NCBI GenBank assembly: GCA_051362555.1
Contig: CM120640.1
Coordinates: 30,585,967-30,649,966 of the forward strand
Origin: Lingula anatina
Lineage: Eukaryota; Animalia; Brachiopoda
Length of the DNA stretch: 64,000 nucleotides
Direction: 5' to 3'
Shown here: positions 1 through 51,592 of the stretch, piece after piece
How the letters are laid out: every line of letters starts with the position of its first letter
Position numbering within the stretch: the first letter of the stretch is position 1
The notes under the pieces: generated by a model
Databases searched by the model: none
What the model was told of the DNA's origin: nothing
What the model saw: only the letters and a program-made list of their open reading frames with translations
Made by a program: the position numbers and the translations under genes

Positions 1-655
1 TCTTTCACTAACTGCTTTTTAAGCTTTTTCATGGTGAGGGTACTCTGAAACAAGAACAATATAACTGAAAGGACTGAAAATTACATTTGAAAAGAAAGAC
101 AAATTTGGTGACTTAATTAAAATAATTAAACGTTAATAATTTTGTCAAATCTGGACCAATATTTCTGAAATTTGAACAAATGATGCTTAACAACAATAAA
201 AATCAGTGATAAGCTGATCAGTTGTCTGTGTCTAATGAAAAGTGTTTTTTTGGACAACATATTTGGGAAAACTGAAAATTACATTGAAAAGACTGGCAAA
301 ACCCAGACCTTAAAATAGTTAAACATTAATAATTTTGTCAAATCTTGTGGAATATTTCTGAAATTTGTACAAATGATGCTTAACAATAATAAAAATCTGT
401 GATAAGCTGATCAGTTGTCTGTTTCTAATGAAAAGTTTTTTTAGGACAATATATTTGCGAAAACCAAAAATTACATTGAAAAGACTGGGAATTCGCAGGA
501 CTTGAAATAGTTAAACGTTAATCATTTTGTCAAATCTAGTCCAATATTTATGAAATTTGTACAAATGATGCTTAACAACAATAAAAATCTGTGATAAGCT
601 GATCAGTTGTCTGTGTCTAATGAAAAGTGTTTTTTGGGACAACATATTTGGGAAA

Positions 656-848
656 ACTGAAAATTACATTGAAAAGACTGGGAAAACCCAGACCTTAAAA
701 TAGTTAAACGTTAATAATTTTGTCAAATCTTGTGGAATATTTCTGAAATTTGTACAAATGATGCTTAACAACAATAAAAATCTGTGATAAGCTGATCAGT
801 TGTCTGTATTGAATGAAAAGTGTTTTTTGGGACAACATATTTGGGAAA
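656..848. repeat. Representative 193-bp satellite monomer
   Basis: Runs from actgaaaattacattg at 656 to the next copy at 849. Contains conserved palindromes aacgtt, atttgtacaaat and ctgatcag, plus A/T tracts. The head segment varies (ggcaaaacccagacc / gggaattcgcaggac / ggcaaatcccaggcc). Confidence 0.95.
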
Positions 849-992
849 ACTGAAAATTACATTGAAAAGACTGGCAAAACCCAGACCTCAAAATAGTTAA
901 ACGTTAATAATTTTGTCAAATCTGGTGGAATATTTCTGAAATTTGTACAAATGATGCTTAACAATAATAAAAATCTGTGATAAGCTGATCAG

Positions 993-1418
993 TTATCTGA
1001 GTCTTTTCTTTTAAGTGTCAAGTGTATGGGAAATTGATCATCAGAAGAGTGAGAATTAACCAAAACAAATATTTCAATATTGCAATGTATTATTTACTCT
1101 GAAAGTAAACAGCAAATGTGATGATTTGAGGTTGTTTGTGTAAGAGGTTGCAAATTACCTATAACTGTCATCTGGAAAACAATATATACCATACAAGAGT
1201 TCTCCTTACTACCTCTGCAAGATGCAGATTAGTCCTTTCTGGAAGGGGTTGTTGTTATCACAATACTCAACAAGGCCCTAAATCTTGCCTATATCATGTA
1301 TTGTACACATGGAGAAGACACAGTGCTACTCTTGGTGGTATCTTTCACTAACTGCTTTTTAAGCTTTTTCATGGTGAGGGTACTCTGAAACAAGAACAAT
1401 ATAACTGAAAGGACTGAA
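993..1418. repeat. Representative spacer (type A); the first ~45 bp are a degenerate monomer end and the remaining ~375 bp are non-satellite
   Basis: Copies start (ttatctgagtc) at about 993, 2333, 5995, 7336, 8484, 9438, 10583, 11537, 14418, 17499, 20381, 23655, 25189, 27684, 29025, 30366, 32093, 33819, 35350, 37076, 38446 (truncated), 39295, 41403, 42553, 43507, 44652, 45606, 46944 and 48328, plus a partial copy at 1-78. Confidence 0.95.
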
Positions 1419-4400
1419 AATTACATTTGAAAAGAAAGACAAATTTGGTGACTTAATTAAAATAATTAAACGTTAATAATTTTGTCAAATCTGGACCAAT
1501 ATTTCTGAAATTTGAACAAATGATGCTTAACAACAATAAAAATCAGTGATAAGCTGATCAGTTGTCTGTGTCTAATGAAAAGTGTTTTTTTGGACAACAT
1601 ATTTGGGAAAACTGAAAATTACATTGAAAAGACTGGCAAAACCCAGACCTTAAAATAGTTAAACATTAATAATTTTGTCAAATCTTGTGGAATATTTCTG
1701 AAATTTGTACAAATGATGCTTAACAATAATAAAAATCTGTGATAAGCTGATCAGTTGTCTGTTTCTAATGAAAAGTTTTTTTAGGACAATATATTTGCGA
1801 AAACCAAAAATTACATTGAAAAGACTGGGAATTCGCAGGACTTGAAATAGTTAAACGTTAATCATTTTGTCAAATCTAGTCCAATATTTATGAAATTTGT
1901 ACAAATGATGCTTAACAACAATAAAAATCTGTGATAAGCTGATCAGTTGTCTGTGTCTAATGAAAAGTGTTTTTTGGGACAACATATTTGGGAAAACTGA
2001 AAATTACATTGAAAAGACTGGGAAAACCCAGACCTTAAAATAGTTAAACGTTAATAATTTTGTCAAATCTTGTGGAATATTTCTGAAATTTGTACAAATG
2101 ATGCTTAACAACAATAAAAATCTGTGATAAGCTGATCAGTTGTCTGTATTGAATGAAAAGTGTTTTTTGGGACAACATATTTGGGAAAACTGAAAATTAC
2201 ATTGAAAAGACTGGCAAAACCCAGACCTCAAAATAGTTAAACGTTAATAATTTTGTCAAATCTGGTGGAATATTTCTGAAATTTGTACAAATGATGCTTA
2301 ACAATAATAAAAATCTGTGATAAGCTGATCAGTTATCTGAGTCTTTTCTTTTAAGTGTCAAGTGTATGGGAAATTGATCATCAGAAGAGTGAGAATTAAC
2401 CAAAACAAATATTTCAATATTGCAATGTATTATTTACTCTGAAAGTAAACAGCAAATGTGATGATTTGAGGTTGTTTGTGTAAGAGGTTGCAAATTACCT
2501 ATAACTGTCATCTGGAAAACAATATATACCATACAAGAGTTCTCCTTACTACCTCTGCAAGATGCAGATTAGTCCTTTCTGGAAGGGGTTGTTGTTATCA
2601 CAATACTCAACAAGGCCCTAAATCTTGCCTATATCATGTATTGTACACATGGAGAAGACACAGTGCTACTCTTGGTGGTATCTTTCACTAACTGCTTTTT
2701 AAGCTTTTTCATGGTGAGGGTACTCTGAAACAAGAACAATATAACTGAAAGGACTGAAAATTACATTTGAAAAGAAAGACAAATTTGGTGACTTAATTAA
2801 AATAATTAAACGTTAATAATTTTGTCAAATCTGGACCAATATTTCTGAAATTTGAACAAATGATGCTTAACAACAATAAAAATCAGTGATAAGCTGATCA
2901 GTTGTCTGTGTCTAATGAAAAGTGTTTTTTTGGACAACATATTTGGAAAAACTGAAAATTACATTGAAAAGACTGGCAAAACCCAGACCTTAAAATAGTT
3001 AAACATTAATAATTTTGTCAAATCTTGTGGAATATTTCTGAAATTTGTACAAATGATGCTTAACAATAATAAAAATCTGTGATAAGCTGATCAGTTGTCT
3101 GTTTCTAATGAAAAGTTTTTTTAGGACAATATATTTGCGAAAACCAAAAATTACATTGAAAAGACTGGGAATTCGCAGGACTTGAAATAGTTAAACGTTA
3201 ATAATTTTGTCAAATTTTGTCCTATATTCCTGAAATTTGTACAAATGATGCTAAACAAAATTAGAAATCTGTGATAAGTTGACCAGTTGTCTGTATTGAA
3301 TGAAAAGTGTTTTTTAGGACAATATATTTGCGAAAAACAAAAATTACATTTGAAAAGAAAGACAAATTTGGTGACTTAATTAAAATAATTAAACGTTAAT
3401 AATTTTGTCAAATCTGGTCCAATATTTCTGAAATTTGAACAAATGATGCTTAACAACAATAAAAATCAGTGCTAAGCTGATCAGTTGTCTGTGTGTAATG
3501 AAAAGTGTTTTTTGGGACAACAAATTTGGGAAAACTGAAAATTACATTGAAACGACTGGCAAATCCCAGGCCTTAAAATAGTTAAACGTTAATAATTTTG
3601 TCAAATTTTGTCCTATATTCCTGAAATTTGTACACATGATGCTTAACAAAAATAGAAATCTGTGATAAGTTGACCAGTTGTCTGTATTGAATGAAAAGTG
3701 TTTTTTAGGACAATATATTTGCGAAAACCAAAAATTACATTGAAAAGACTGGGAATTCGCAGGACTTGAAATAGTTAAACGTTAATAATTTTGTCAAATC
3801 TGGTTCAATATATCTGCAATTTGTACAAATGATGCTTGACAACAATAAAAATTAGTGATAAGCTGATCAGTTGTCTGTGACTAATGAAAAATGTTTTTTT
3901 GGACAACATATTTGGGAAAACTGAAAATTACATTGAAAAGACTGGGAAAACCCAGACCTTAAAATAGTTAAACATTAATAATTTTGTCAAATCTTGTGAA
4001 ATATTTCTGAAATTTGTACAAATAATGCTTAACAACAATAAAAATCTGTGATAAGCTGATCAATTGTCTGTGTCTAATGAAAAGTGTTTTTTTGGACAAC
4101 ATATTTGGGAAAACTGAAAATTACATGAAAAAGACTGGGAATTTGCAGGACTTGAAATAGTTAAACATTAATAATTTTGTCTAATCTAGTCCAATATTTC
4201 TGAAATTTGTGCAAATGATGCTTAACTATAATTAAAATCTGTGAGAAGCTGATCAGTTGTCTGTGTGTAATGAAAAGTGTTTTTTGGGACAATATATTTG
4301 CGAAAACCAAAAATTACATTGAAAAGACTGGGAATTCGCAGGACTTGAAATAGTTAAACGTTAATAATTTTGTCAAATCTGGTTCAATATATCTGAAATT

Positions 4401-7400
4401 TGTACAAATGATGCTTAACAACAATAAAAATCAGTGATAAGCTGATCAGTTGTCTGTATTGAATGAAAAGAGTTTTTTTGGACAACATATTTGGGAAAAC
4501 TGAAAATTACATTGAAAAGACTGGGAAAACCCAGAGCTTAAAATAGTTAAACATTAATAATTTTGTCAAATCTTGTGGAAAATTTCTGAAATTTGTACAA
4601 ATAATGCTTAACAACAATAAAAATCTGTGATAAGCTGATCAGTTGTCTGTGTCTAATGAAAAGTGTTTTTTTGGACAACATATTTGGGAAAACTGAAAAT
4701 TACATGAAAAAGACTGGGAATTTGCAGGACTTGAAATAGTTAAACGTTAATAATTTTGTCTAATCTAGTCCAATATTTCTGAAATTTGTACAAATGATGC
4801 TTAACTATAATTAAAATCTGTGATAAGCTGATCAGTTGTTTGTGTGTAATGAAAAGTGTTTTTTGGGACAACAAATTTGGGAAAACTGAAAATTACATTG
4901 AAAAGACTGGCAAATCCCAGGCCTTAAAATAGTTAAACGTTAATAATTTTGTCAAATTTTGACCTATGTTTCTGAAATTTGTACAAATGATGCTTAACAA
5001 CAATAGAAATCTGTGATAAGCTGATCAGTTGTCTGTATTGAATGAAAAGTGTTTTTTAGGACAATATATTTGGGAAAACCAAAAATTACATTGAAAAGAC
5101 TGGGAATTCGCAGGACTTGAAATAGTTAAACGTTAATCATTTTGTCAAATCTAGTCCAATATTTATGAAATTTGTACAAATGATGCTTAACAACAATAAA
5201 AATCTGTGATAAGCTGATCAGTTGTCTGTGTCTAATGAAAAGTTTTTTTTTTTGGGACAACATATTTGGGAAAACTGAAAATTACATTGAAAAGACAAGC
5301 AAAACCCAGACCTTAAAATAGTTAAACATTAATAATTTTGTCAAATCTTGTGGAATATTTCTGAAATTTGTACAAATGATGCTTAACAGGAATAAAAATC
5401 TGTGATAAGCTGATCAGTTGTCAGTTTCTTATGAAAAGTTTTTTAGGACAATATATTTGCGAAAAACCAAAAATTACATTGAAAAGACTGGCAAATCCCA
5501 GGCCTCAAAATAGTTAAATGTTAATAATTTTGTCAAATCTAGTCCAATATTTCTGAAATTTGTACAAATAATGCTTAACAACAATAAAAGTCTGTGATAA
5601 GCTGATCAGTTGTCTGTGTGTAATGAAAAGTGTTTTTTGGGACAACATATTTGGGAAAACTGAATATTACATTGAAAAGACTGGTAAATCCCAGGCCTTA
5701 AAATAGTTAAACGTTAATAATTTTGTCAAATTTTGTCCTATATTTCTGAAATTTGTACAAATGATGCTTAACAACAATAAAAATCTGAGAAAAGCTGATC
5801 AGTTGTCTGTGTCTAATGAAAAGTGTTTTTTAGGACAATATATTTGTGAAAACCAAAAATTACATTGAAAAGACTGGCAAAACCCAGACCTCAAATAGTT
5901 AAACGTTAATAATTTTGTCAAATCTGGTGGAATATTTCTGAAATTTGTACAAATGATGCTTAACAATAATAAAAATCTGTGATAAGCTGATCAGTTATCT
6001 GAGTCTTTTCTTTTAAGTGTCAAGTGTATGGGAAATTGATCATCAGAAGAGTGAGAATTAACCAAAACAAATATTTCAATATTGCAATGTATTATTTACT
6101 CTGAAAGTAAACAGCAAATGTGATGATTTGAGGTTGTTTGTGTAAGAGGTTGCAAATTACCTATAACTGTCATCTGGAAAACAATATATACCATACAAGA
6201 GTTCTCCTTACTACCTCTGCAAGATGCAGATTAGTCCTTTCTGGAAGGGGTTGTTGTTATCACAATACTCAACAAGGCCCTAAATCTTGCCAAATATCAT
6301 GTATTGTACACATGGAGAAGACACAGTGCTACTCTTTGTAGTATCTTTCACTAACTGCTTTTTAAGCTTTTTCAGGGTGAGGGTACTCTGAAACAAGAAC
6401 AATATAACTGAAAGGACTGAAAATTACATTTGAAAAGAAAGACAAATTTGGTGACTTAATTAAAATAATTAAACGTTAATAATTTTGTCAAATCTGGACC
6501 AATATTTCTGAAATTTGAACAAATGATGCTTAACAACAATAAAAATCAGTGATAAGCTGATCAGTTGTCTGTGTCTAATGAAAAGTGTTTTTTTGGACAA
6601 CATATTTGGGAAAACTGAAAATTACATTGAAAAGACTGGCAAAACCCAGACCTTAAAATAGTTAAACATTAATAATTTTGTCAAATCTTGTGGAATATTT
6701 CTGAAATTTGTACAAATGATGCTTAACAATAATAAAAATCTGTGATAAGCTGATCAGTTGTCTGTTTCTAATGAAAAGTTTTTTTAGGACAATATATTTG
6801 CGAAAACCAAAAATTACATTGAAAAGACTGGGAATTCGCAGGACTTGAAATAGTTAAACGTTAATCATTTTGTCAAATCTAGTCCAATATTTATGAAATT
6901 TGTACAAATGATGCTTAACAACAATAAAAATCTGTGATAAGCTGATCAGTTGTCTGTGTCTAATGAAAAGTGTTTTTTGGGACAACATATTTGGGAAAAC
7001 TGAAAATTACATTGAAAAGACTGGGAAAACCCAGACCTTAAAATAGTTAAACGTTAATAATTTTGTCAAATCTTGTGGAATATTTCTGAAATTTGTACAA
7101 ATGATGCTTAACAACAATAAAAATCTGTGATAAGCTGATCAGTTGTCTGTATTGAATGAAAAGTGTTTTTTGGGACAACATATTTGGGAAAACTGAAAAT
7201 TACATTGAAAAGACTGGCAAAACCCAGACCTCAAAATAGTTAAACGTTAATAATTTTGTCAAATCTGGTGGAATATTTCTGAAATTTGTACAAATGATGC
7301 TTAACAATAATAAAAATCTGTGATAAGCTGATCAGTTATCTGAGTCTTTTCTTTTAAGTGTCAAGTGTATGGGAAATTGATCATCAGAAGAGTGAGAATT

Positions 7401-8289
7401 AACCAAAACAAATATTTCAATATTGCAATGTATTATTTACTCTGAAAGTAAACAGCAAATGTGATGATTTGAGGTTGTTTGTGTAAGAGGTTGCAAATTA
7501 CCTATAACTGTCATCTGGAAAACAATATATACCATACAAGAGTTCTCCTTACTACCTCTGCAAGATGCAGATTAGTCCTTTCTGGAAGGGGTTGTTGTTA
7601 TCACAATACTCAACAAGGCCCTAAATCTTGCCTATATCATGTATTGTACACATGGAGAAGACACAGTGCTACTCTTGGTGGTATCTTTCACTAACTGCTT
7701 TTTAAGCTTTTTCATGGTGAGGGTACTCTGAAACAAGAACAATATAACTGAAAGGACTGAAAATTACATTTGAAAAGAAAGACAAATTTGGTGACTTAAT
7801 TAAAATAATTAAACGTTAATAATTTTGTCAAATCTGGTCCAATATTTCTGAAATTTGAACAAATGATGCTTAACAACTATAAAAATCAGTGATAAGCTGA
7901 TCAGCTGTCTGTGTGTAATGAAAAGTGTTTTTTGGGACAACATATTTGGGAAAACTGAATATTACATTGAAAAGACTGGGAATTCGCAGGACTTGAAATA
8001 GTTAAACGTTAATAATTTTGTCAAATCTAGTCCAATATTTCTGAAATTTGTACAAATAATGCTTAACAACAATAAAAGTCTGTGATAAGCTGATCAGCTG
8101 TCTGTGTGTAATGAAAAGTGTTTTTTGGGACAACATATTTGGGAAAACTGAATATTACATTGAAAAGACTGGGAATTCGCAGGACTTGAAATAGTTAAAC
8201 GTTAATAATTTTGTTAAATCTTGTCCTATATTTCTGAAATTTGTACAAATGATGCTTAACAACAATAGAAATCTGTGATATGCTGATCA

Positions 8290-11200
8290 GTTGTCTGTGT
8301 CTAATGAAAAGTGTTTTTTGGGACAACATATTTGGGAAAACTGAAAATTACATTGAAAAGACTAGCAAAACCCAGGCCTTAAAATAGTTAAACGTTAATA
8401 ATTTTGTCAAATCTTGTCCTATATTTCTGAAATTTGTACAAATGATGCTTAACAATAATAAAAATCTGTGATAAGCTGATCAGTTATCTGAGTCTTTTTC
8501 TTTAAGTGTCAAGTGTATGGGAAATTGATCATCAGAAGAGTGAGAATTAACCAAAACAAATATTTCAATATTGCAATGTATTATTTACTCTGAAAGTAAA
8601 CAGCAAATGTGATGATTTGAGGTTGTTTGTGTAAGAGGTTGCAAATTACCTATAACTGTCATCTGGAAAACAATATTTACCCATACAAGAGTTCTCCCTA
8701 CTACCTCTGCAAGATGCAGATTACTTCTTTTTGGAAGGGGTTGTTGTTATCACAATACTCAACAAGTAAATCTTGCCAAAAATCATGTACTGTACACATG
8801 GAGAAGACACAGTGCTGCTCTTAGTGGTATCTTTAACTGCCTGCTTTTTCAGCATTTTCATGGTGAGGGTACTCTGAAACAAGAACAATATAACTGAAAG
8901 GACTGAAAATTACATTTCAAAAGAATGACAAATTCGGTGACTTAATTAAAATAGTTAAATGTTAACAATTTTGTCAAATCTAGTCCAATATTTCTGAAAT
9001 TTGTACAAATGATGCTTAACAACAATAAAAATCTGTGAAAAGCTGATCAGTTGTCTGTATTGAATGAAAAGTGTTTTTTGGGACAACATAGTTGGGAAAA
9101 CTGAAAATTACATTGAAAAGCCTGGGAATTTGCAGGACTTGAAATAGTTAAACATTAATAATTTTGTCTAATCTAGTCCAATATTTATGAAATTTGTACA
9201 AATGATGCTTAACAACAATAAAAATCTGTGAAAAGCTGATCAATTGTCTGTGTCTAATGAAAACTGTTTTTTTGGGACAATATAGTTGGGAAAACTGAAA
9301 ATCACACTGAAAAGACTGGCAAAACCCAGGCCTTAAAATAGTTAAACATTAATAATTTTGTCAAATCTTGTCCTATATTTCTGAAATTTGTACAAATGAT
9401 GCTTAACAATAATAAAAATCTGTGATAAGCTGATCAGTTATCTGAGTCTTTTTCTTTAAGTGTCAAGTGTATGGGAAATTGATCATCAGAAGAGTGAGAA
9501 TTAACCAAAACAAATATCTCAATATTGCAATGTATTATTTTCTCTGAAAGTAAACAGCAAATGTGATGATTTGAGGTTGTTTGTGTAAGAGGTTGCAAAT
9601 TACCTATAACTGTCATCTGGAAAACAATATATACCCATACAAGAGTTCTCCCTACTACCTCTGCAAGATGCAGATTACTTCTTTCTGGAAGGGGTTGTTG
9701 TTATCACAACACTCAACAAGTAAATCTTGCTAAATATCATGTATTGTACACATGGAGAAGACACAGTGCTGCTCTTAGTGGTATCTTTAACTGCCTGCTT
9801 TTTCAGCATTTTCATGGTTAGGGTACTCTGAAACAAGAACAATATAACTGAAAGGACTGAAAATTACATTTCAAAAGAATGACAAATTCGGTGACTTAAT
9901 TAAAATAGTTAAACGTTAACAATTTTGTCAAATCTAGTCCAATATTTCTGAAATTTGTACAAATGATGCTTAACAACAATTAAAATCTGTGATAAGCTGA
10001 TCAATTGTCTGTGATTAATGAGAGTGTTTTTTGGGACAACATAGTTGGGAAAACTGAAAATTACATTGAAAAGACTGGCAAATCCCAGGCCTTAAAATAG
10101 TTAAACATTAATAATTTTGTCAAATCTTGTCCAATATTTCTGAAATTTGTACAAATGATGCTTAACAACAATAGAAATCTGTGATAAGCTGATCAGTTGT
10201 CTGTATTGAATGGAAAGTGTTTTTTAGGACAATATATTTGCGAAAACCAAAAATTACATTGAAAAGACTGGGAATTCGCAGGACTTCAAATAGTTAAACG
10301 GTAATAATTTTGTCAAATCTAGTCCAATATTTATGAAATTTGTACAAATGATGCTTAACAACAATAAAAATCTGTGAAAAGCTGATCAGTTGTCTGTGTC
10401 TAATGAAAAGTGTTTTTTGGGACAACATATTTGGGAAAACTGAAAATTACATTGAAAAGACTAGCAAAACCCAGGCCTTAAAATAGTTAAACGTTAATAA
10501 TTTTGTCAAATCTTGTCCTATATTTCTGAAATTTGTACAAATGATGCTTAACAATAATAAAAATCTGTGATAAGCTGATCAGTTATCTGAGTCTTTTTTT
10601 TTAAGTGTCAAGTGTATGGGAAATTGATCATCAGAAGAGTGAGAATTAACCAAAACAAATATTTCAATATTGCAATGTATTATTTACTCTGAAAGTAAAC
10701 AGCAAATGTGATGATTTGAGGTTGTTTGTGTAAGAGGTTGCAAATTACCTATAACTGTCATCTGGAAAACAATATTTACCCATACAAGAGTTCTCCCTAC
10801 TACCTCTGCAAGATGCAGATTACTTCTTTTTGGAAGGGGTTGTTGTTATCACAATACTCAACAAGTAAATCTTGCCAAAAATCATGTATTGTACACATGG
10901 AGAAGACACAGTGCTGCTCTTAGTGGTATCTTTAACTGCCTGCTTTTTCAGCATTTTCATGGTGAGGGTACTCTGAAACAAGAACAATATAACTGAAAGG
11001 ACTGAAAATTACATTTCAAAAGAATGACAAATTCGGTGACTTAATTAAAATAGTTAAATGTTAACAATTTTGTCAAATCTAGTCCAATATTTCTGAAATT
11101 TGTACAAATGATGCTTAACAACAATAAAAATCTGTGAAAAGCTGATCAGTTGTCTGTATTGAATGAAAAGTGTTTTTTGGGACAACATAGTTGGGAAAAC

Positions 11201-21800: not shown

Positions 21801-23193
21801 ATTCGCAGGACTTGAAATAGTTAAACGTTAATAATTTTGTCAAATCTGGTTCAATATATCTGAAATTTGTACAAATGATGCTTAACAACAATAAAAATCA
21901 GTGATAAGCTGATCAGTTGTCTGTATTGAATGAAAAGAGTTTTTTTGGACAACATATTTGGGAAAACTGAAAATTACATTGAAAAGACTGGGAAAACCCA
22001 GAGCTTAAAATAGTTAAACATTAATAATTTTGTCAAATCTTGTGGAAAATTTCTGAAATTTGTACAAATAATGCTTAACAACAATAAAAATCTGTGATAA
22101 GCTGATCAGTTGTCTGTGTCTAATGAAAAGTGTTTTTTTGGACAACATATTTGGGAAAACTGAAAATTACATGAAAAAGACTGGGAATTGCAGGACTTGA
22201 AATAGTTAAACATTAATAATTTTGTCTAATCTAGTCCAATATTTCTGAAATTTGTACAAATGATGCTTAACTATAATTAAAATCTGTGATAAGCTGATCA
22301 GTTGTTTGTGTGTAATGAAAAGTGTTTTTTGGGACAACAAATTTGGGAAAACTGAAAATTACATTGAAAAGACTGGCAAATCCCAGGCCTTAAAATAGTT
22401 AAACGTTAATAATTTTGTCAAATTTTGTCCTATGTTTCTGAAATTTGTACAAATGATGCTTAACAACAATAGAAATCTGTGATAAGCTGATCAGTTGTCT
22501 GTATTGAATGAAAAGTGTTTTTTAGGACAATATATTTGGGAAAACCAAAAATTACATTGAAAAGACTGGGAATTCGCAGGACTTGAAATAGTTAAACGTT
22601 AATCATTTTGTCAAATCTAGTCCAATATTTATGAAATTTGTACAAATGATGCTTAACAACAATAAAAATCTGTGATAAGCTGATCAGTTGTCTGTGTCTA
22701 ATGAAAAGTTTTCTTTTTTTGGGACAACATATTTGGGAAAACTGAAAATTACATTGAAAAGACAAGCAAAACCCAGACCTTAAAATAGTTAAACATTAAT
22801 AATTTTGTCAAATCTTGTGGAATATTTCTGAAATTTGTACAAATGATGCTTAACAGGAATAAAAATCTGTGATAAGCTGATCAGTTGTCAGTTTCTTATG
22901 AAAAGTTTTTTAGGACAATATATTTGCGAAAAACCAAAAATTACATTAAAAAGACTGGCAAATCCCAGGCCTCAAAATAGTTAAATGTTAATAATTTTGT
23001 CAAATCTAGTCCAATATTTCTGAAATTTGTACAAATAATGCTTAACAACAATAAAAGTCTGTGATAAGCTGATCAGCTGTCTGTGTGTAATGAAAAGTGT
23101 TTTTTGGGACAACATATTTGGGAAAACTGAATATTACATTGAAAAGACTGGGAATTCGCAGGACTTGAAATAGTTAAACGTTAATAATTTTGT
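11265..23193. repeat. Tandem duplication of a 5963-bp block within the array
   Basis: Offsets 11533->17496 and 14418->20381 both equal 5963. Rare variants (gaagtttgtac, aagctcatcag, gttgaacgtttat, aacgtgaataat, ggacgacat, ggaattgcagg) recur at that offset. Confidence 0.9.
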
Positions 23194-41100: not shown

Positions 41101-42359
41101 GGACTTGAAATAGTGAAACGTTAATAATTTTGTCAAATCTAGTCCAATATTTATGAAATTTGTACAAATGATGCTTAACAACAATAAAAATCTGTGATAA
41201 GCTGATCAGTTGTCTGTGTCTAATGAAAAGTGTTTTTTGGGACAACATATTTGGGAAAACTGAAAATTACATTGAAAAGACTGGCAAAACCCAGACCTCA
41301 AAATAGTTAAACGTTAATAATTTTGTCAAATCTGGTGGAATATTTCTGAAATTTGTACAAATGATGCTTAACAATAATAAAAATCTGTGATAAGCTGATC
41401 AGTTATCTGAGTCTTTTCTTTTAAGTGTCAAGTGTATGGGAAATTGATCATCAGAAGAGTGAGAATTAACCAAAACAAATATTTCAATATTGCAATGTAT
41501 TATTTACTCTGAAAGTAAACAGCAAATGTGATGATTTGAGGTTGTTTGTGTAAGAGGTTGCAAATTACCTATAACTGTCATCTGGAAAACATTATATACC
41601 CATACAAGAGTTCTCCTTACTACCTCTGCAAGATGCAGATTAGTTCTTTCTGGAAGGGGTTGTTGTTATCACAATACTCAACAAGGCCCTAAATCTTGCC
41701 AAATATCATGTATTGTACACATGGAGAAGACACAGTGCTGCTCTTGGTGGTATCTTTCACTAACTGCTTTTTAAGCTTTTTCATGGTGAGGGTACTCTGA
41801 AACAAGAACAATATAATTGAAAGGACTGAAAATTACATTTGAAAAGAATGACAAATTCGGTGACTTAATTAAAATAATTAAACGTTAATAATTTTGTCAA
41901 ATCTGGTCCAATATTTCTGAAATTTGAACAAATGATGCTTAACAACAATAAAAATCAGTGATAAGCTGATCAGTTGTCTGTGTGTAATGAAAAGTGTTTT
42001 TTGGGACAATAAATTTGGGAAAACTGAAAATTACATTGAAACGACTGGCAAATCCCAGGCCTTAAAATAGTTAAACATTAATAATTTTGTCAAATTTTGT
42101 CCTATATTTCTGAAATTTGGACAAATGATGCTTAACAAAAATAGAAATCTGTGATAAGCTGATCAGTTGTATGTATTGAATGAAAAGTGTTTTTTAGGAC
42201 AATATATTTGCAAAAACCAAAAAATACATTGTAAATACTGGGAATTCGCAGGACTTGAAATAGTTAAACGTTAATCATTTTGTCAAATCTAGTCCAATAT
42301 TTATGAAATTTGTACAAATGATGCTTAACAACAATAAAAATCTGTGATAATCTGATCAG

Positions 42360-45300
42360 TTGTCTGTGTCTAATGAAAAGTGTTTTTTGGGACAACATAT
42401 TTGGGAAAACTGAAAATTACATTGAAAAGACTAGCAAAACCCAGGCCTTAAAATAGTTAAACGTTAATAATTTTGTCAAATCTTGTCCTATATTTCTGAA
42501 ATTTGTACAAATGATGCTTAACAATAATAAAAATCTGTGATAAGCTGATCAGTTATCTGAGTCTTTTTCTTTAAGTGTCAAGTGTATGGGAAATTGATCA
42601 TCAGAAGAGTGAGAATTAACCAAAACAAATATTTCAATATTGCAATGTATTATTTACTCTGAAAGTAAACAGCAAATGTGATGATTTGAGGTTGTTTCTG
42701 TAAGAGGTTGCAAATTACCTATAACTGTCATCTGGAAAACAATATTTACCCATACAAGAGTTCTCCCTACTACCTCTGCAAGATGCAGATTACTTCTTTT
42801 TGGAAGGGGTTGTTGTTATCACAATACTCAACAAGTAAATCTTGCCAAAAATCATGTATTGTACACATGGAGAAGACACAGTGCTGCTCTTAGTGGTATC
42901 TTTAACTGCCTGCTTTTTCAGCATTTTCATGGTGAGGGTACTCTGAAACAAGAACAATATAACTGAAAGGACTGAAAATTACATTTCAAAAGAATGACAA
43001 ATTCGGTGACTTAATTAAAATAGTTAAATGTTAACAATTTTGTCAAATCTAGTCCAATATTTCTGAAATTTGTACAAATGATGCTTAACAACAATAAAAA
43101 TCTGTGAAAAGCTGATCAGTTGTCTGTATTGAATGAAAAGTGTTTTTTGGGACAACATAGTTGGGAAAACTGAAAATTACATTGAAAAGCCTGGGAATTT
43201 GCAGGACTTGAAATAGTTAAACATTAATAATTTTGTCTAATCTAGTCCAATATTTATGAAATTTGTACAAATGATGCTTAACAACAATAAAAATCTGTGA
43301 AAAGCTGATCAATTGTCTGTGTCTAATGAAAACTGTTTTTTTGGGACAATATAGTTGGGAAAACTGAAAATCACACTGAAAAGACTGGCAAAACCCAGGC
43401 CTTAAAATAGTTAAACATTAATAATTTTGTCAAATCTTGTCCTATATTTCTGAAATTTGTACAAATGATGCTTAACAATAATAAAAATCTGTGATAAGCT
43501 GATCAGTTATCTGAGTCTTTTTCTTTAAGTGTCAAGTGTATGGGAAATTGATCATCAGAAGAGTGGGAATTAACCAAAACAAATATCTCAATATTGCAAT
43601 GTATTATTTTCTCTGAAAGTAAACAGCAAATGTGATGATTTGAGGTTGTTTGTGTAAGAGGTTGCAAATTACCTATAACTGTCATCTGGAAAACAATATA
43701 TACCCATACAAGAGTTCTCCCTACTACCTCTGCAAGATGCAGATTACTTCTTTCTGGAAGGGGTTGTTGTTATCACAACACTCAACAAGTAAATCTTGCT
43801 AAATATCATGTATTGTACACATGGAGAAGACACAGTGCTGCTCTTAGTGGTATCTTTAACTGCCTGCTTTTTCAGCATTTTCATGGTTAGGGTACTCTGA
43901 AACAAGAACAATATAACTGAAAAGACTGAAAATTACATTTCAAAAGAATGACAAATTCGGTGACTTAATTAAAATAGTTAAACGTTAACAATTTTGTCAA
44001 ATCTAGTCCAATATTTCTGAAATTTGTACAAATGATGCTTAACAACAATTAAAATCTGTGATAAGCTGATCAATTGTCTGTGATTAATGAGAGTGTTTTT
44101 TGGGACAACATAGTTGGGAAAACTGAAAATTACATTGAAAAGACTGGCAAATCCCAGGCCTTAAAATAGTTAAACATTAATAATTTTGTCAAATCTTGTC
44201 CAATATTTCTGAAATTTGTACAAATGATGCTTAACAACAATAGAAATCTGTGATAAGCTGATCAGTTGTCTGTATTGAATGGAAAGTGTTTTTTAGGACA
44301 ATATATTTGCGAAAACCAAAAATTACATTGAAAAGACTGGGAATTCGCAGGACTTCAAATAGTTAAACGGTAATAATTTTGTCAAATCTAGTCCAATATT
44401 TATGAAATTTGTACAAATGATGCTTAACAACAATAAAAATCTGTGATAAGCTGATCAGTTGTCTGTGTCTAATGAAAAGTGTTTTTTGGGACAACATATT
44501 TGGGAAAACTGAAAATTACATTGAAAAGACTAGCAAAACCCAGGCCTTAAAATAGTTAAACGTTAATAATTTTGTCAAATCTTGTCCTATATTTCTGAAA
44601 TTTGTACAAATGATGCTTAACAATAATAAAAATCTGTGATAAGCTGATCAGTTATCTGAGTCTTTTTCTTTAAGTGTCAAGTGTATGGGAAATTGATCAT
44701 CAGAAGAGTGAGAATTAACCAAAACAAATATTTCAATATTGCAATGTATTATTTACTCTGAAAGTAAACAGCAAATGTGATGATTTGAGGTTGTTTGTGT
44801 AAGAGGTTGCAAATTACCTATAACTGTCATCTGGAAAACAATATTTACCCATACAAGAATTCTCCCTACTACCTCTGCAAGATGCAGATTACTTCTTTTT
44901 GGAAGGGGTTGTTGTTATCACAATACTCAACAAGTAAATCTTGCTAAAAATCATGTATTGTACACATGGAGAAGACACAGTGCTGCTCTTAGTGGTATCT
45001 TTAACTGCCTGCTTTTTCAGCATTTTCATGGTGAGGGTACTCTGAAACAAGAACAATATAACTGAAAGGACTGAAAATTACATTTCAAAAGAATGACAAA
45101 TTCGGTGACTTAATTAAAATAGTTAAATGTTAACAATTTTGTCAAATCTAGTCCAATATTTCTGAAATTTGTACAAATGATGCTTAACAACAATAAAAAT
45201 CTGTGAAAAGCTGATCAGTTGTCTGTATTGAATGAAAAGTGTTTTTTGGGACAACATAGTTGGGAAAACTGAAAATTACATTGAAAAGCCTGGGAATTTG

Positions 45301-46944
45301 CAGGACTTGAAATAGTTAAACATTAATAATTTTGTCTAATCTAGTCCAATATTTATGAAATTTGTACAAATGATGCTTAACAACAATAAAAATCTGTGAA
45401 AAGCTGATCAATTGTCTGTGTCTAATGAAAACTGTTTTTTTGGGACAATATAGTTGGGAAAACTGAAAATCACACTGAAAAGACTGGCAAAACCCAGGCC
45501 TTAAAATAGTTAAACATTAATAATTTTGTCAAATCTTGTCCTATATTTCTGAAATTTGTACAAATGATGCTTAACAATAATAAAAATCTGTGATAAGCTG
45601 ATCAGTTATCTGAGTCTTTTTCTTTAAGTGTCAAGTGTATGGGAAATTGATCATCAGAAGAGTGAGAATTAACCAAAACAAATATCTCAATATTGCAATG
45701 TATTATTTTCTCTGAAAGTAAACAGCAAATGTGATGATTTGAGGTTGTTTGTGTAAGAGGTTGCAAATTACCTATAACTGTCATCTGGAAAACAATATAT
45801 ACCCATACAAGAGTTCTCCCTACTACCTCTGCAAGATGCAGATTACTTCTTTCTGGAAGGGGTTGTTGTTATCACAACACTCAACAAGTAAATCTTGCCA
45901 AATATCATGTATTGTACACATGGAGAAGACACAGTGCTGCTCTTAGTGGTATCTTTAACTGCCTGCTTTTTCAGCATTTTCATGGTGAGGGTACTCTGAA
46001 ACAAGAACAATATAACTGAAAGGACTGAAAATTACATTTCAAAAGAATGACAAATTCGGTGACTTAATTAAAATAGTTAAACGTTAACAATTTTGTCAAA
46101 TCTAGTCCAATATTTCTGAAATTTGTACAAATGATGCTTAACAACATTTAAAATCTGTGATAAGCTGATCAATTGTCTGTGATTAATGAGAGTGTTTTTT
46201 GGGACAACATAGTTGGGAAAACTGAAAATTACATTGAAAAGACTGGCAAATCCCAGGCCTTAAAATAGTTAAACATTAATAATTTTGTCAAATCTTGTCC
46301 AATATTTCTGAAATTTGTACAAATGATCCTTAAATATAATTAAAATCTGTGATAAGCTGATCAGTTGTCTGTGTGTAATGAAAAGTGTTTTTTGGGACAA
46401 CATATTTGGGAAAACCAAAAATTACATTGAAAAGACTGAGAATTTGCGGGACTTGAAATAGTTAAACGTTAATAATTTTGTCTAATCTAGTTCAATATTT
46501 CTGAAATTTGTACAAATGATGCTTAACAACAATAGAAATCTGTGAAAAGCTGATCAGTTGTCTGTATTGAATGAAAAGTGTTTTTTAGGACAACATAGTT
46601 GGGAAAACTGAAAATTACATTGAAAAGACTGGGAATTCGCAGGACTTGAAATAGTTAAACGGTAATAATTTTGTCTAATCTAGTCCAATATTTATGAAGT
46701 TTGTACAAATGATGCTTAACAACAATAGAAATCTGTGATAAGCTCATCAGTTGTCTGTGTCTAATGAAAAGTGTTTTTTGGGACAACATATTTGGGAAAA
46801 CTGAAAATTACATTGAAAAGACTGGCAAAACCCAGACCTTAAAATAGTTGAACGTTTATAATTTTGTCAAATCTTGTCCTATATTTCTGAAATTTGTACA
46901 AATGATGCTTAACAATAATAAAAATCTGTGATTAGCTGATCAGT
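42360..46944. repeat. 2099-bp type-B higher-order repeat, copy block 2 (34,069 bp from block 1)
   Basis: Offsets 9434->43503 and 11533->45602 both equal 34069, and 43503->45602 equals 2099. Diagnostic variants appear in the same order as in block 1. Confidence 0.9.
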
Positions 46945-48495
46945 TATCTGAGTCTTTTTTTAAGTGTCAAGTGTATGGGAAATTGATCATCAGAAGAGTG
47001 AGAATTAACCAAAACAAATATTTCAATATTGCAATGTATTATTTACTCTGAAAGTAAACAGCAAATGTGATGATTTGAGGTTGTTTGTGTAAGAGGTTGC
47101 AAATTACCTATAACTATCATCTGGAAAACAATATATACCCATACAAGAGTTCTCCTTACTACCTCTGCAAGATGCAGATTACTCCTTTCTGGAAGGGGTT
47201 GTTATTATCACAATACTCAACAAGGCCCTAAATCTTGCCTATATCATGTATTGTACACATAGAGAAGACACAGTGCTGCTCTTGGTGGTATCTTTAACTG
47301 CCTGCTTTTTCAGCATTTTCATGGTGAGGGTACTCTGAAACAAGAACAATATAACTGAAAGGACTGAAAATTACATTTGAAAAGAATGACAAATTCAGTG
47401 ACTTAATTAAAATAATTAAACGTTAATAATTTTGTCAAATCTGGTCCAATATTTCTGAAATTTGAACAAATGATGCTTAACAACAATAAAAATCAGTGAT
47501 AAGCTGATCAGTTGTCTGTGTCTAATGAAAAGTGTTTTTTGGGACAACTGAAAATTACATTGAAAAGACCGGCAAATCCTAGGCCTTAAAAAAGTTAAAT
47601 GTTAATAATTTTGTCAAATCTGGTCCAATATTTATGAAATTTGTACAAATGATGCTTAACAACAATAGAAATGTGTGATAAGCTGATCAATTGTCTGTGT
47701 TTAATGAAAAGTGTTTTTTGGGACAACATATTTGGGAAAACTGAAAATTACATTGAAAAGACTGGCAAATCCCAGGCCTCAAAATAGTTAAATGTTAATA
47801 ATTTTGTCAAATCTGGTCCAATATTTATGAAATTTGTACAAATGATGCTTAACAACAATAGAAATGTGTGATAAGCTGATCAATTGTCTGTGTTTAATGA
47901 AAAGTGTTTTTTGGGACAACATATTTGGGAAAACTGAAAATTACATTGAAAAGACTGGCAAATCCCAGGCCTTAAAATAGTTAAACGTTAATAATTTTGT
48001 CAAATCTTGTCCTATATTTCTGAAATTTGTACAAATGATGCTTAACAACAATAGAAATCTGTGATAAGCTGATCAGTTGTCTGTATTGAATGGAAAGTGT
48101 TTTTTAGGACAATATATTTGCGAAAACCAAAAATTACATTGAAAAGACTGGGAATTCGCAGGACTTGAAATAGTTTTGGGAAAACTGAAAATTACATTGA
48201 AAAGACTGGCAAAACCCAGACCTTAAAATAGTTAAACGTTAATAATTTTGTCAAATCTGGTGGAATATTTCTGAAATTTGTACAAATGATGCATAACAAT
48301 AATAAAAATCTGTGATAAGCTGATCAGTTATCTGAGTCTTTTTTTTTTTAAGTGTCAAGTGTATGGGAATTTGATCAACAGAAGAGTGAGGATTAACCAA
48401 AACAAATATTTCAATATTGCAATGTATTATTTACTCTGAAAGTAAACAGCAAATGTGATGATTTGAGGTTGTTTGTGTAAGAGGTTGCAAATTAC

Positions 48496-48719
48496 CTATA
48501 ACTGTCATCTGGAAAACAATATATACGCATACAAGAGTTCTCCTTAGTACCTCTGCAAGATGCAGATTACTCCTTTCTGGAAGGGGTTGTTGTTATCACA
48601 ATACTCAACCGGTAAATCTTGCCAAATATCATGTATTGTACACATGGAGAAGACACAGTGCTGCTCTTGGTGGTATCTTTCACTGCCTGCTTTTTCAGCT
48701 TTTTCATGGTGAGGGTACT
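48496..48719 (-). other. Putative exon in the terminal (source) spacer copy; paralogous cassettes in the other spacers (e.g. 1159-1384)
   Basis: Minus-strand acceptor ttatattgttcttctttcag|AGTACC and donor ATAG|gtaatt; an alternative donor is GAG|gtacta at 48551 (gtagta/gtaagg in type-A copies). Splice motifs only, no transcript data. Confidence 0.4.
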
Positions 48720-49220
48720 CTGAAAGAAGAACAATATAACTGAAAGGACTGAATTTTGTATTTGTGTCTTCCACAACTGGGTGAGATGAAAGGATATTCC
48801 TGCAGCTGCCATTTCCTGTCTATTTCACACATCGGAGTTGTGGTGATTGAACTGTGATAAGTTAAAAATGACCTTGTCTTTTGGAGGCTACTGGACACCA
48901 TTGTGACTGCTGAAACTATCACAATCTCAGACTGATCACAGTTAAATCAACAGAATTCTGTCAAATCTGCTTCGATTATTTGTGGAATTTACACACAAAC
49001 TAACTAAACACAATAACTTTAGAAATCTGGGATAACTATACCAGGTGGCTGTGCCTTATTTTGTGAGGAGTAAGATGGGAGAAGTGCAAAAAAAATTATT
49101 AAATTTTAAAGAAACGCAAAATATGATCACTGTTTTGTTGATCCATAGGGGAAGGATAAGAGACAAATTTTGTGTTACATGGTTTGTAAAACAAAACCAA
49201 GTGTTTATTTTGTGTATTAC

Positions 49221-49383
49221 CTGCAATCAGTTCTGTTCCCATCTTGGAAATGGGTGACCTGAGGGAAGTCATGTCACTACTCCACTTTAGGTCCAATAAA
49301 TTTCATCCCAAATGGACCACATCAAGCAGGCCACTATGTAGACACATGACACTGTACAACAACTGTCAAACTGTGTGTGTGAA
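49221..49383 (-). other. Putative 163-nt exon in the unique flank
   Basis: Strong acceptor tttatctttttttttctag|TTCAC and donor GCAG|gtaata. Stops occur in all three frames across the whole exon, so it would be UTR/non-coding or carry a start codon (ATG at 49272). Confidence 0.45.
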
Positions 49384-49870
49384 CTAGAAAAAAAAAGATA
49401 AACATTCATTAAATATTCAACAATGGCCAACAGTGATTCACAGAACATGTAAATTACAAGGAAAGGGGTGGGATTTAGTTTTTCTTTATTTGCCAGAAGA
49501 CAAGGCTATCCCCAGTGAGGCCACCAGTTGGACAGCCCATGGCATCAAAAGACTATATTTTCAAAAATGGCTGAAGAAATTTTAGGGGAATATATATAAT
49601 GGCAGGTTGGTTAGTCGGTACTGCCTGTGGACAATCTAGCAAATTATCAAAATGTATTTTCTTTCAACAAAATGTCCAGAAAGAGAAGCACATTTTCAGA
49701 AAGAAATTTCTTTAAAGACTGTGAATGTCAAAACCAGTATGTTATTAGTACATACATGTACATGTATATGCATGTATGTCTGAACTGGATGTGGTACTCG
49801 GCGCATGTCAAACATGGCAGCTTCCTCATCTTCATGGTTTTTGTACTTTCAAAACTCAATAAAAAATTGA

Positions 49871-50228
49871 TCCAAAGTTTACCCTTTTGCAGATGATGAC
49901 ACTTAAATATTTTGAATAATGTATGATATTGAGGACTGTGCAAAATTACAGGAGGATATACAAATGAAGTTTACAATTGGACTGAAAACTCACTTCTTAA
50001 GTTGCATCCAGATAAATGTAAATCTAAGCACATTTCTAGCTCTAGGACCTCAGACAATCATGTGTATAAACTTGGTTCCCTAGGAATAGATCCACATCCA
50101 GTCAGCAAAGAAAAGGACATAGGAGTCACCACTGATCATAATCTAACTTTTGACCAACATATGAATGAGAAAATTAACAAAGCAAACATAATTCTTGGTA
50201 CTTTATGCATAACTTTCTCTTACATAGC
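49871..50228 (+). mobile_element. Degenerate non-LTR retrotransposon (CR1/L2-type LINE) reverse-transcriptase fragment
   Basis: Translates with a stop and frameshifts as SKVYPFADDDT*IF...DCAKLQEDI/NEVYNWTENSLLKLHPDKCK...EKDIGVTTDHNLTFDQHMNEKINKANIILG. This matches the FADD catalytic motif and the downstream LQxD..W....L..N..KCK / EKDLGV..D..L.F..HI.....KA..ILG pattern of CR1-group RTs. Confidence 0.9.
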
Positions 50229-50833
50229 AATTAAGGTAAGAATCACTTTTATTATCATCATAGACACCAAAGGGAAACTCTACACTTACATATATAAAAT
50301 TAAAGGAAGGACCTGGGGTTTTTGAAAAAAAAAATTAAAAATTCCATACATTTTCATGTTATTTTTATGGTGAAATTGCTTTAATTTTGGCAAGCTATGA
50401 AAATGAAAATTTGAAAACTAGATCTTTTTTGGATATCATTTTTAAAAAATTAAATTTCCACGATTAGGCCCTCTCCTCTTCTTGATCGGGAGTCCATCGG
50501 AGATATAAAAGTTACCATATTAAGTAATCATATTAATATATTTGTTTACTTTATTATCATTATTATTCATTTACATATTACTTAACAAATATAATGCCCC
50601 ACAATAGCATCGTGGCACCTGCAGTTCCTTTATGTATATATCATACAAATATAATTTACACACTGACATACACTTCACTGTAAATAGCACTTATCACATA
50701 TCTCTCTATCTCTCAAAAGCCCCGCCCAACTGCCGCATTCAACTCTCATGTCTAGCAGAACCAGATCACAACAACAAAGTACTCAACCTTCTGTCATCAA
50801 GAATCGAGGAATGTCTTTCTACTTATATCATAC

Positions 50834-50972
50834 CTTTATGGAAATTTGTAAATATATCTGGTCCTTCATAACGTGTGAGTGTTTCCGCTACGCTGAACTA
50901 CATGTACGTTTGTAGGTCAAAGAAGTAAAAGAAGACACGCAGTGAATACTCGGTCACAACCATATATTATAT
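50834..50972 (-). promoter_or_regulatory. Possible core promoter and first exon (TATA-like box, Inr-like TCACT, donor)
   Basis: On the minus strand, TATAATATAT starts at 50971, TCACT has its A at 50943 (28 nt downstream), and donor AAAG|gtatga lies at 50834. These are short motifs in AT-rich DNA. Confidence 0.25.
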
Positions 50973-51512: not shown

Positions 51513-51592
51513 GCTTTTATTATTTTTTTCTTTATTATTCATTAATTAATTGATTTATTAATTTTTTGATAATTATATTATCATTATTATTG

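What the first reader, a model, noticed from the sequence alone, without database searches (positions are those of the whole stretch)
1..50972. Candidate transcription unit running into the satellite: ~29 amplified copies of one exon cassette with satellite-filled introns
Seen in sequence, minus strand: a TATA/Inr-like element and donor (50972-50834), a well-bounded exon (49383-49221), then a 501-nt intron and an exon in the terminal spacer (48719-48496). Full-length spacer copies inspected keep the same acceptor (ttgttcttgtttcag|AG) and donor (ATAG|gtaatt). The capture breakpoint falls only ~33 nt upstream of the acceptor, so the polypyrimidine tract travelled with the exon. The intronic LINE fragment is antisense to this model. 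Inference: the array may be a gene body, i.e. a lncRNA or small-RNA precursor with tandemly repeated ~225-nt exons and introns of 3-17 satellite monomers, loosely analogous to satellite-filled giant introns of Drosophila Y-loop genes. It could offer a choice among variant exons. No expression evidence is available here.
Basis: partly seen in the sequence, partly recalled or inferred. Interest (0 to 1): 0.8.

Follow-up and report, generated by a model that had tools for sequence, protein, structure and literature searches.

The report
Satellite array hiding a spliced RNA
A 48-kb satellite array in an animal genome (likely the lamp shell Lingula) holds 28 copies of a small exon cassette with no open reading frame between runs of 193-base repeats, and RNA from diverged copies is spliced at the same sites, so the array is likely the body of a non-coding gene, although this copy itself was not seen expressed.

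Summary
The anatomy is real: 28 complete ~453-bp cassettes alternate with runs of 193-bp monomers. RNA-seq under the same species label contains minus-strand transcripts joined exon-to-exon at the predicted acceptor and donor, plus monomer-monomer and satellite-cassette junction reads. But the reads come from diverged copies, mostly 85-95% alike: at a site fixed in all 28 cassettes, 0 of 196 reads from 7 runs carry the array's allele. Whether these copies are a sister-lineage orthologue or a paralogue is unresolved. CpG loss starting near 50.4-50.8 kb fits an old methylated gene body. Corrections: the upstream donor used is 50788, not 50834; a second 38-nt exon was missed; the terminal 'capture breakpoint' looks like a secondary fusion; introns are only 0.7-3.4 kb. 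All frames are blocked, so it is non-coding. The closest known design is mouse Dxz4, not Y-loop genes. The scan noted a similar spliced macrosatellite in another genome (e1-9585178, unchecked), but no look-alike sequence. Verdict: new variant of a known kind, interest 0.5.

The parts
1..48339 (-). Higher-order tandem array: 193-bp monomers (197 hits of 100 bp or more, mean 91% to one monomer) interrupted by ~453-bp cassettes; units of 954-3663 bp; runs on past the window's left edge; recent block duplications (6.5 kb at 99.2%, 6.4 kb at 97.6%)
48496..48719 (-). Exon A, terminal copy (224 nt; 93-95% to internal cassettes). Acceptor and donor used by homologous RNA; alternative internal donors near 48574 and 48550 in the RNA copies
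   Evidence: (joints 48697->48496 in 21 reads of 4 runs; ->48554 in 8; ->48574 in 6)
41569..41796 (-). Exon A, example internal copy (228 nt). All 28 copies carry a 9-nt tandem duplication and lack a 10-nt piece that holds a donor used in the RNA copies
48398..48435 (-).
   Evidence: table 5c (48697->48398, 2 reads; 48435->48574, 2 reads; thin support)
41797..41868 (-). 72-nt acceptor-side segment of internal cassettes; about 48 nt of it is homologous to the monomer; RNA copies have it too and run on into the monomer
   Evidence: score 56, 0 of 1000 shuffles reach it; depth 6-7 in X2; 4-nt gap at 41865 in 11 of 13 covering reads
41869..42061 (-). Example 193-bp monomer; homologous monomers are transcribed with a strong minus-strand bias in X2 and X3 and as tandem runs
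   Evidence: depth 130 vs 5 in X2, 74 vs 2 in X3 at 41888-41910; joint 42061->41869 in 42 reads
38459..38614 (-). Truncated cassette: acceptor and exon A are missing, break falls at the donor, exon B retained
48766..48827 (-). Piece 'P' of another exon of the same RNA family. In RNA copies it is deeply covered, leaves the window's sequence at 48763-48766, and lies upstream of the 49383 exon; here it abuts the terminal cassette
   Evidence: depth 85-90 in X1, X2; 127 and 136 loose-ended reads; joint 49381->48768 in 8 reads
49221..49383 (-). Upstream exon E2: acceptor supported by homologous RNA; coverage falls off near 49290-49303; the 49221 donor is not among the listed joints
50788..50820 (-). 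3' end of upstream exon E1 with the donor AAG|gttgag that homologous RNA joins to E2
   Evidence: table 5c (49382->50787: 4 reads in X1, 4 in X2) and loose ends at 49379
50834..50972 (-).
49840..50330 (+). Decayed LINE reverse-transcriptase fragment, antisense to the transcript model
1..50440 (.). CpG-depleted domain (o/e 0.23 in the array, 0.17 at 48765-50500, TpG+CpA about 1.4) against 0.86 at 50788-63000

Best explanation
The array is a two-level tandem repeat of an exon cassette with no open reading frame and a 193-bp satellite, diverged copies of which are transcribed and spliced, and this copy is likely the body of a minus-strand non-coding gene whose splicing would skip the satellite runs and string copies of the exon together. 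Shown: the anatomy; splicing of homologous exon copies at the same sites; same-strand transcription of homologous satellite and of both satellite-cassette junctions; no coding frame. Inferred: (1) a unit made of exon A, mini-exon B and their introns was tandemly duplicated by unequal crossing-over; (2) inside its last intron a 193-bp stretch expanded as an internal VNTR, seeded by the roughly 48-nt similarity between the acceptor-side intron and the monomer; (3) whole blocks were re-amplified recently from one founder cassette that carried a 9-nt duplication and had lost one donor; (4) RNA polymerase II enters from an upstream start and the regularly spaced splice sites let the satellite be cut out co-transcriptionally. 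Likely role: a by-product RNA or a cis role in keeping the array in a transcribed, methylated chromatin state, as for macrosatellite RNAs, rather than a sequence-specific product.
For: Exon-to-exon joints at the predicted borders: 48697->48496, with the rest of the exon start as the letters between, in 21 reads from 4 of 4 runs; the same junction as loose ends in X5 (4 and 3 reads). Minus-strand bias over exon A in the runs that look stranded (X1, X2, X3, X4, X5) and over the monomer in X2 and X3. The array's own satellite-cassette junction in RNA (41983->41419, 15 reads in 3 of 4 runs) and monomer-monomer junctions (42 reads in 3 of 4 runs). In X5 exon A depth reaches 19 while the monomer stays at or below 5, although monomers outnumber cassettes 197 to 28 here. 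E1->E2 joint homologous to the single-copy flank (8 reads). CpG o/e 0.17-0.23 from about 50440 leftwards against 0.86 upstream, Fisher p=3e-6; methylated CpGs gather in gene bodies in oyster (PMC4378273, abstract). At least one stop in the best frame of 28 of 28 copies; only 6 of 28 lengths divisible by three. Same layout is known for mouse Dxz4 (PMC3491370, passages).
Against: No read can be assigned to this array's cassettes. At 48675/41752, fixed in 28 of 28 copies, 196 of 196 reads from 7 runs carry another letter. 0 of 1157 reads laid and 5 of 841 are 99% or more alike. At monomer site 41977, fixed in 197 of 197 monomers, 216 of 302 reads differ; the other 86 are not assignable. All copies lack a donor that RNA copies use (0 matches). 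The link from the flank exons into the array (49221->48719) is not among the listed joints. Short reads cannot tie a spliced junction to a satellite-filled intron: one RNA copy type has a 59-nt satellite-free intron (41823->41647, 4 reads in X3), and back-splicing gives the same joint. CpG loss records history, and repeats are methylated too (61-62 kb satellite o/e 0.2). Exon A is more variable among copies than the rest of the cassette (35 of 228 versus 22 of 226 columns, p=0.09), so no sign of constraint on the exon sequence.
Confidence: 0.55

Rival explanations
1. This array is a silent offshoot: a piece of an expressed non-coding gene family was amplified passively with its satellite, its splice sites survive only because the copies are young, and all RNA comes from paralogous loci.
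For: 0 of 196 reads with the array allele in 7 runs; shared lesions in all 28 copies, including loss of a used donor; exon order in the flank differs from the RNA copies and piece P is cut at the array edge; splice-site invariance is within chance (p=0.15); copies are 93-100% alike.
Against: The species label may cover distinct lineages (PMC8146825, section 2.5), so no matching reads would be expected even from an active orthologue; no baseline gene was laid to test this. Flank and array keep acceptors and donors at the homologous used positions. Tissues are unknown and 6-26% of each run was read.
Confidence: 0.3
2. The exon-to-exon joints come from circular RNA or from short satellite-free units, and satellite-bearing units appear only in unspliced read-through or pre-mRNA captured at A-rich stretches.
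For: A 'goes back' joint cannot tell tandem copies from back-splicing; a satellite-free unit exists in X3; unspliced depth in X2 drops from 24 to 6 at the A-run at 41415-41423; the repeated-exon lncRNA FIRRE is mostly circular in differentiating ES cells (PMC5910558, abstract).
Against: Joints occur in poly(A) or oligo-dT libraries (X1, X2, X7, X8); several different exon-start variants and four donor positions are joined; satellite-flanked cassettes in RNA keep an intact acceptor region.
Confidence: 0.1
3. The family is a decayed or partly intact protein-coding gene built of tandem exons (NBPF/Olduvai type), and the cassette was once a 49-codon repeat.
For: The short form of exon A in RNA copies works out to 147 nt, divisible by three, with one stop in one frame (hand reading); another note reports a tandem-exon coding gene in this genome (e1-10624575, unchecked).
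Against: All frames blocked in 28 of 28 copies and, by hand reading of loose ends, in the RNA variants; RNA variants differ by frameshifting indels; 0 hits for frame 1 among 1.84 billion representatives, 0 Pfam families for 13 queries, 0 of 14 candidates for the longest open stretch (weak).
Confidence: 0.07
4. The transcript is a host or precursor for small RNAs (intronic miRNA or snoRNA as in C19MC, or piRNAs).
For: Repeated non-coding exons with a repeated intron unit is the C19MC layout (PMC2691840, passages); single-strand transcription through a repeat is typical of piRNA precursors (recalled, no call).
Against: No Rfam match at gathering score in the array or flank; monomer dimer z=-0.45 and exon A z=-0.37; best 80-nt window folds to -20 kcal/mol without a long hairpin. 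piRNA output could not be tested.
Confidence: 0.08

Closest known systems
Mouse Dxz4 macrosatellite and its spliced lncRNA (PMC3491370; passages read)
   Same: Tandem units whose length varies through an internal VNTR; a one-strand transcript that starts at an exon outside the array and splices to the same short exon (163 nt) in each unit, with skipping; unspliced RNA as well.
   Different: No homology is claimed. Here units are 1-3.7 kb with 2-16 whole copies of a short AT-rich 193-bp monomer (Dxz4: 3.8-5.7 kb, one to three copies of about 900 bp), at least 29 units, two exons per unit, an invertebrate host, and expression shown only for diverged copies. CTCF binding and sex linkage were not testable.
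FIRRE lncRNA with RRD exonic repeats (PMC4820808 passages; PMC5910558 abstract)
   Same: Non-coding locus with one repeat that recurs as exons and other local repeats in introns.
   Different: FIRRE repeats are dispersed among 13-23 exons, not a regular satellite array; RRD has a tested nuclear-retention role, none is known here.
C19MC host gene (PMC2691840 passages)
   Same: Tandemly repeated non-coding exon spliced into ladders.
   Different: Its introns carry miRNA hairpins and Alus; none found here.
Amphioxus 'mirage' minisatellites (PMC3087553 passages)
   Same: Tandem copies that carry splice signals, with concerted evolution and divergent edge copies.
   Different: Mirages copy one exon-intron edge (10-160 bp) in coding genes and do not disturb normal splicing; here whole exons with both sites are repeated and homologous copies are used.
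Drosophila Y-linked gigantic genes (PMC11207136 abstract)
   Same: Repeat-filled introns (the satellite content is recalled, not in the abstract) and a possible need for co-transcriptional splicing.
   Different: Those are genes over 4 Mb with introns above 99% of the span; here introns are 0.7-3.4 kb, the exons themselves are the repeat, and nothing is coded.

Membership tests
Dxz4-type spliced macrosatellite (design) | Kilobase tandem units whose size varies through an internal VNTR | tested here: met
   Units of 954-3663 bp differing by whole 193-bp monomers
Dxz4-type spliced macrosatellite (design) | The same non-coding exon in every unit, spliced unit to unit | tested here: inconclusive
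   Exon in 28 of 29 fully contained cassettes; exon-to-exon joints seen only for diverged copies, 0 of 196 reads with this array's allele
Dxz4-type spliced macrosatellite (design) | Transcript starts at a unique exon outside the array and enters it | tested here: inconclusive
   E1->E2 joint in 8 reads; E2->A joint not listed; no depth at the predicted start
Dxz4-type spliced macrosatellite (design) | Transcription from one strand | tested here: met
   For homologous copies: 130 vs 5 (X2) and 74 vs 2 (X3) over the monomer; X5 monomer reads are few and unbiased
DXZ4/Dxz4 orthologues (descent) | Conserved CTCF site, X-linkage near Pls3 | not testable with these tools
   No genome held; mammalian locus; no homology claimed
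Y-loop gigantic genes | Introns of hundreds of kb to Mb | tested here: not met
   730-3436 nt
Y-loop gigantic genes | Protein-coding exons (recalled) | tested here: not met
   Stops in every frame of 28 of 28 copies
Mirage minisatellites | Repeat unit spans a single exon-intron boundary of a coding gene | tested here: not met
   Unit holds two whole exons; the monomer has no acceptor with a 6-base pyrimidine run
Small-RNA host genes (C19MC type) | A miRNA hairpin or snoRNA in each repeated intron | tested here: not met
   No Rfam match at gathering score; no unusual folding
Small-RNA host genes / piRNA precursors | Small RNAs produced from the locus | not tested
   No small-RNA run was among the 9 listed
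Coding tandem-exon arrays (NBPF type) | Frame-preserving exons with an open frame across copies | tested here: not met
   6 of 28 lengths divisible by three; no stop-free copy; no protein hits

The most novel reading that the evidence does not exclude
A classical short satellite was born inside the intron of a tandemly repeated exon cassette, and the evenly spaced splice sites act as a licence that carries RNA polymerase II through tens of kilobases of satellite. The design has been kept, with splice sites in place, across cryptic Lingula lineages while the exon sequence drifted by about 8-10%, and it yields a modular non-coding RNA whose copy number and exon choice follow the array's expansions.
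Probability: 0.2. Interest if true: 0.75.

Novelty: new variant of a known kind. Interest (0 to 1): 0.5.

Why it matters
If this array is transcribed, it is an invertebrate counterpart of the spliced macrosatellite design described for mouse Dxz4, here with a short AT-rich satellite as the intron filler. It would give a tractable case for two open questions: where satellite monomers come from (here possibly from an intron) and whether splice sites inside satellite arrays are kept to let transcription pass. It also warns that blocks masked as satellite can be gene bodies. If the array is silent, it is an ordinary passive amplification of a non-coding gene fragment.

Tried and rejected
No whole genome is held, so paralogues and the array's far end could not be examined. 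The run search listed no indexed RNA holder; 9 raw-read runs were added by species label; 7 of the 9 were laid, X6 and X9 were not. A 20-nt exon pattern gave 0 matches in metagenome contigs. Coding reading rejected: 0 Pfam families for 13 queries, 0 hits for exon A frame 1 among 1.84 billion proteins (the other two frames were scanned only against Pfam), 0 of 14 candidates for 48547-48819. Small structured RNA rejected as far as Rfam, folding and tRNA scans go. Homology of the monomer to the cassette's other parts was not significant: exon A 256, intron A-B 115, exon B 559, 3' end 137 of 1000 shuffles reached the score, so only the acceptor side supports an intronic origin. Splice-window invariance for both exon pairs gives p=0.03 (2 of 50 versus 55 of 404), but the second pair was added after seeing the data and copies are related, so I do not count it. 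A first allele table was off by one base and was redone; only one search is used for cassette alleles. A search for Lingula methylation data gave only a figure legend without the value. No description of this array turned up in searches for brachiopod + satellite DNA + Lingula (3 papers hold the terms, 2 listed, both on Platynereis), Lingula + chromosome-level + satellite + long non-coding, or satellite DNA + originated from + intron + tandem exon duplication (0 papers); the library lacks most subscription papers, and no supplements were read.
Full report
Setting. The window is animal DNA. Earlier notes on the same genome call it the brachiopod Lingula; I did not test that label, and no whole genome is held. 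Positions 1-48339 are a tandem array; 48340-64000 is unique or transposon-rich sequence.

Anatomy. The array alternates 193-bp monomers with a cassette of about 453 bp. There are 197 monomer hits of 100 bp or more, on average 91% alike to one monomer. Introns from donor to next acceptor are 730-3436 nt, i.e. 2-16 whole monomers and one 117-bp partial. Cassettes are 93-100% alike; the terminal one is the most distant (93-95%). Blocks of 6.5 kb at 99.2% and 6.4 kb at 97.6% identity show recent unequal exchange. The intronic LINE piece is on the + strand.

Chance. Among the 28 copies, 1 of 25 columns in exon A's splice windows varies against 56 of 429 elsewhere (p=0.15). Invariance is what young copies give anyway. 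The TATA-like word is common in this flank (61 on the minus strand).

RNA evidence for the exon type. Nine raw-read runs share the species label; I laid seven. On 48340-51560 at 88% likeness, reads join 48697 back to 48496 with 13 letters between that match the exon start: 21 reads in 4 of 4 runs. This is the predicted donor joined to the predicted acceptor, in copies that lack the window's 9-nt duplication. Other joints use internal donors near 48550 (8 reads) and 48574 (6 reads). Two-read joints use an acceptor at 48435 and a donor at 48398, which border a 38-nt exon B present in every cassette; that support is thin. First mates lie almost all on the + strand in X1, X2 and X4, which with GT-AG on the minus strand means minus-strand RNA; X7 looks unstranded.

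RNA evidence for satellite-bearing units. On one internal cassette plus one monomer (41405-42066, 85% likeness), monomer depth is 130 versus 5 by strand in X2 and 74 versus 2 in X3. Monomer-to-monomer joints occur in 42 reads and the array's own satellite-to-cassette joint (41983->41419) in 15 reads, each in 3 of 4 runs. Unspliced reads cross from the acceptor side into the monomer. In X5 exon depth reaches 19 while the monomer stays at or below 5; in X2 and X3 monomer depth exceeds exon depth about three- to four-fold, less than the 7:1 ratio in this DNA. So the sampled animals carry arrays of the same build and transcribe them on the same strand.

The limit. These reads are not from this array's cassettes. 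At 48675/41752 all 28 copies share one letter and 196 of 196 reads carry another (X1 50, X4 11, X7 35; X2 31, X3 16, X5 11, X8 42; X2's 13 reads left out as a repeat). Of the 32 listed differences checked, 25 are letters absent from all 28 copies. 0 of 1157 reads and 5 of 841 reach 99%. At monomer site 41977, fixed in 197 of 197 monomers, 216 of 302 reads differ; the rest cannot be assigned. Two readings remain: a paralogous array, or the orthologue in another lineage under the same name. Lingula anatina populations are reported to be deeply split, with one suggested as a cryptic species (PMC8146825, abstract and section 2.5). I had no lay left for a baseline gene, so this is open. The tables show only the best-supported rows (40 of 149 and 40 of 385 differences), and 6-26% of each run was read.

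Upstream model. The joint seen is 49382->50787 (4 reads each in X1 and X2), so the donor used is at 50788, not 50834, and there is no depth at 50824-50931. The acceptor at 49383 is supported; coverage of that exon falls off near 49290-49303 and 49221->48719 is not among the listed joints. A piece at 48766-48827 is deeply covered (85-90 in X1, X2), leaves the window's sequence at 48763-48766 in 127 and 136 reads, and is joined upstream of the 49383 exon in 8 reads. Internal cassettes and RNA copies instead have a 72-nt acceptor-side segment that runs into the monomer. I infer that the terminal junction is a secondary fusion of an exon piece to a cassette, not the point from which the cassette was captured.

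Origin of the satellite. About 48 nt of the acceptor-side segment aligns to the monomer (score 56; 0 of 1000 shuffles), while the other cassette parts do not. This fits a monomer that arose from, or recombined with, the cassette's own intron. Direction is not shown.

DNA trace of a gene body. CpG o/e is 0.23 in the array and 0.17 at 48765-50500, with TpG+CpA near 1.4, against 0.86 at 50788-63000; the best change point is 50440 (Fisher p=3e-6; lowest of 103 upstream 1.9-kb windows is 0.43). In oyster, methylation gathers in gene bodies and young repeats (PMC4378273, abstract). The unique flank sharing the depletion, with a boundary just downstream of exon E1, fits a long-transcribed unit. It does not show present activity, and a 146-bp satellite at 61-62 kb is also depleted.

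Coding or not. Every copy has a stop in its best frame and 6 of 28 lengths are divisible by three. By hand reading of the read tables, the RNA variants are also blocked in all frames and differ by frameshifts. Protein searches found nothing. Rfam, tRNA and folding tests found no structured RNA above threshold.

How it most likely works. A non-coding gene's two-exon unit was amplified in tandem, a 193-bp intron stretch expanded within units, and blocks were re-amplified from one founder cassette. Polymerase II would enter from upstream and splicing would remove the satellite runs, giving chains of exon A with optional exon B. Splicing of homologous copies is shown; activity of this copy (0.55) and any role are inferred. 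Exon A is if anything more variable than its introns (35 of 228 versus 22 of 226), so a by-product RNA or a cis chromatin role is likelier than a sequence-specific product. Rivals: silent paralogue (0.3), circles or satellite-free units as the source of the joints (0.1; X3 shows a 59-nt satellite-free intron in 4 reads), small-RNA precursor (0.08), decayed coding array (0.07).

Comparison. Mouse Dxz4 has the same design: units that vary by an internal VNTR and a one-strand transcript that starts outside and splices to the same 163-nt exon in each unit (PMC3491370, passages). FIRRE (PMC4820808 passages; PMC5910558 abstract) and the C19MC host gene (PMC2691840 passages) have repeated non-coding exons. 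Mirages copy only an exon edge (PMC3087553 passages). Y-linked gigantic genes differ by three orders of magnitude in intron size (PMC11207136 abstract). The preprint 10.1101/2024.05.28.596352 (passages) has one mention of satellites, in a figure legend; its supplements are closed and could bear on repeat annotation. It works like Dxz4 but is not a member by descent. No description of this array was found.

Verdict. Observation confirmed; interpretation partly supported, with real RNA backing at the family level and none yet for this locus. New variant of a known kind; interest 0.5.

Noticed in passing
window 42380-42475 (+), and the same part of other monomers: Weak full-length Rfam match to U6 snRNA across about half of the monomer, antisense to the transcript: 22.6 bits against a gathering score of 44; E 0.0015 on a chosen 310-bp stretch but 0.23 over the whole array. 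It may be chance in AT-rich DNA or a trace of a decayed U6 copy in the monomer's ancestry.
   Followed up: partly
window 52683-53045 (+): Open frame of about 120 codons with no Pfam family and no hit among longer proteins (0 of 252 candidates); weak 73% similarity over 56 bp to 63905-63958 on the other strand (E 0.72).
   Followed up: partly
window 63001-64000: CpG o/e 0.08, likely the edge of another methylated gene body.
   Followed up: no
window 61278-61983 and 61978-62186: A second small satellite (146-bp unit, about 3-5 copies, CpG-poor) next to a 209-bp inverted-repeat element.
   Followed up: no
window 51329-51506: Nested palindromic, CpG-rich element (MITE-like) just upstream of the proposed start.
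   Followed up: no
window 58272-58446 and 59477-59591: 16-bp-unit minisatellites in inverted orientation about 1.1 kb apart, like the ends of a transposon.
   Followed up: no
window 38459-38614: A deletion removed exon A and its acceptor with the break right at the donor, at a short TTAT similarity with the monomer end.
   Followed up: partly
window 48340-48764 versus RNA: RNA copies show several other unit types: monomer joined into exon B (42066->41517, 6 reads) and a unit with a 59-nt intron, so the family is structurally very fluid.
   Followed up: no
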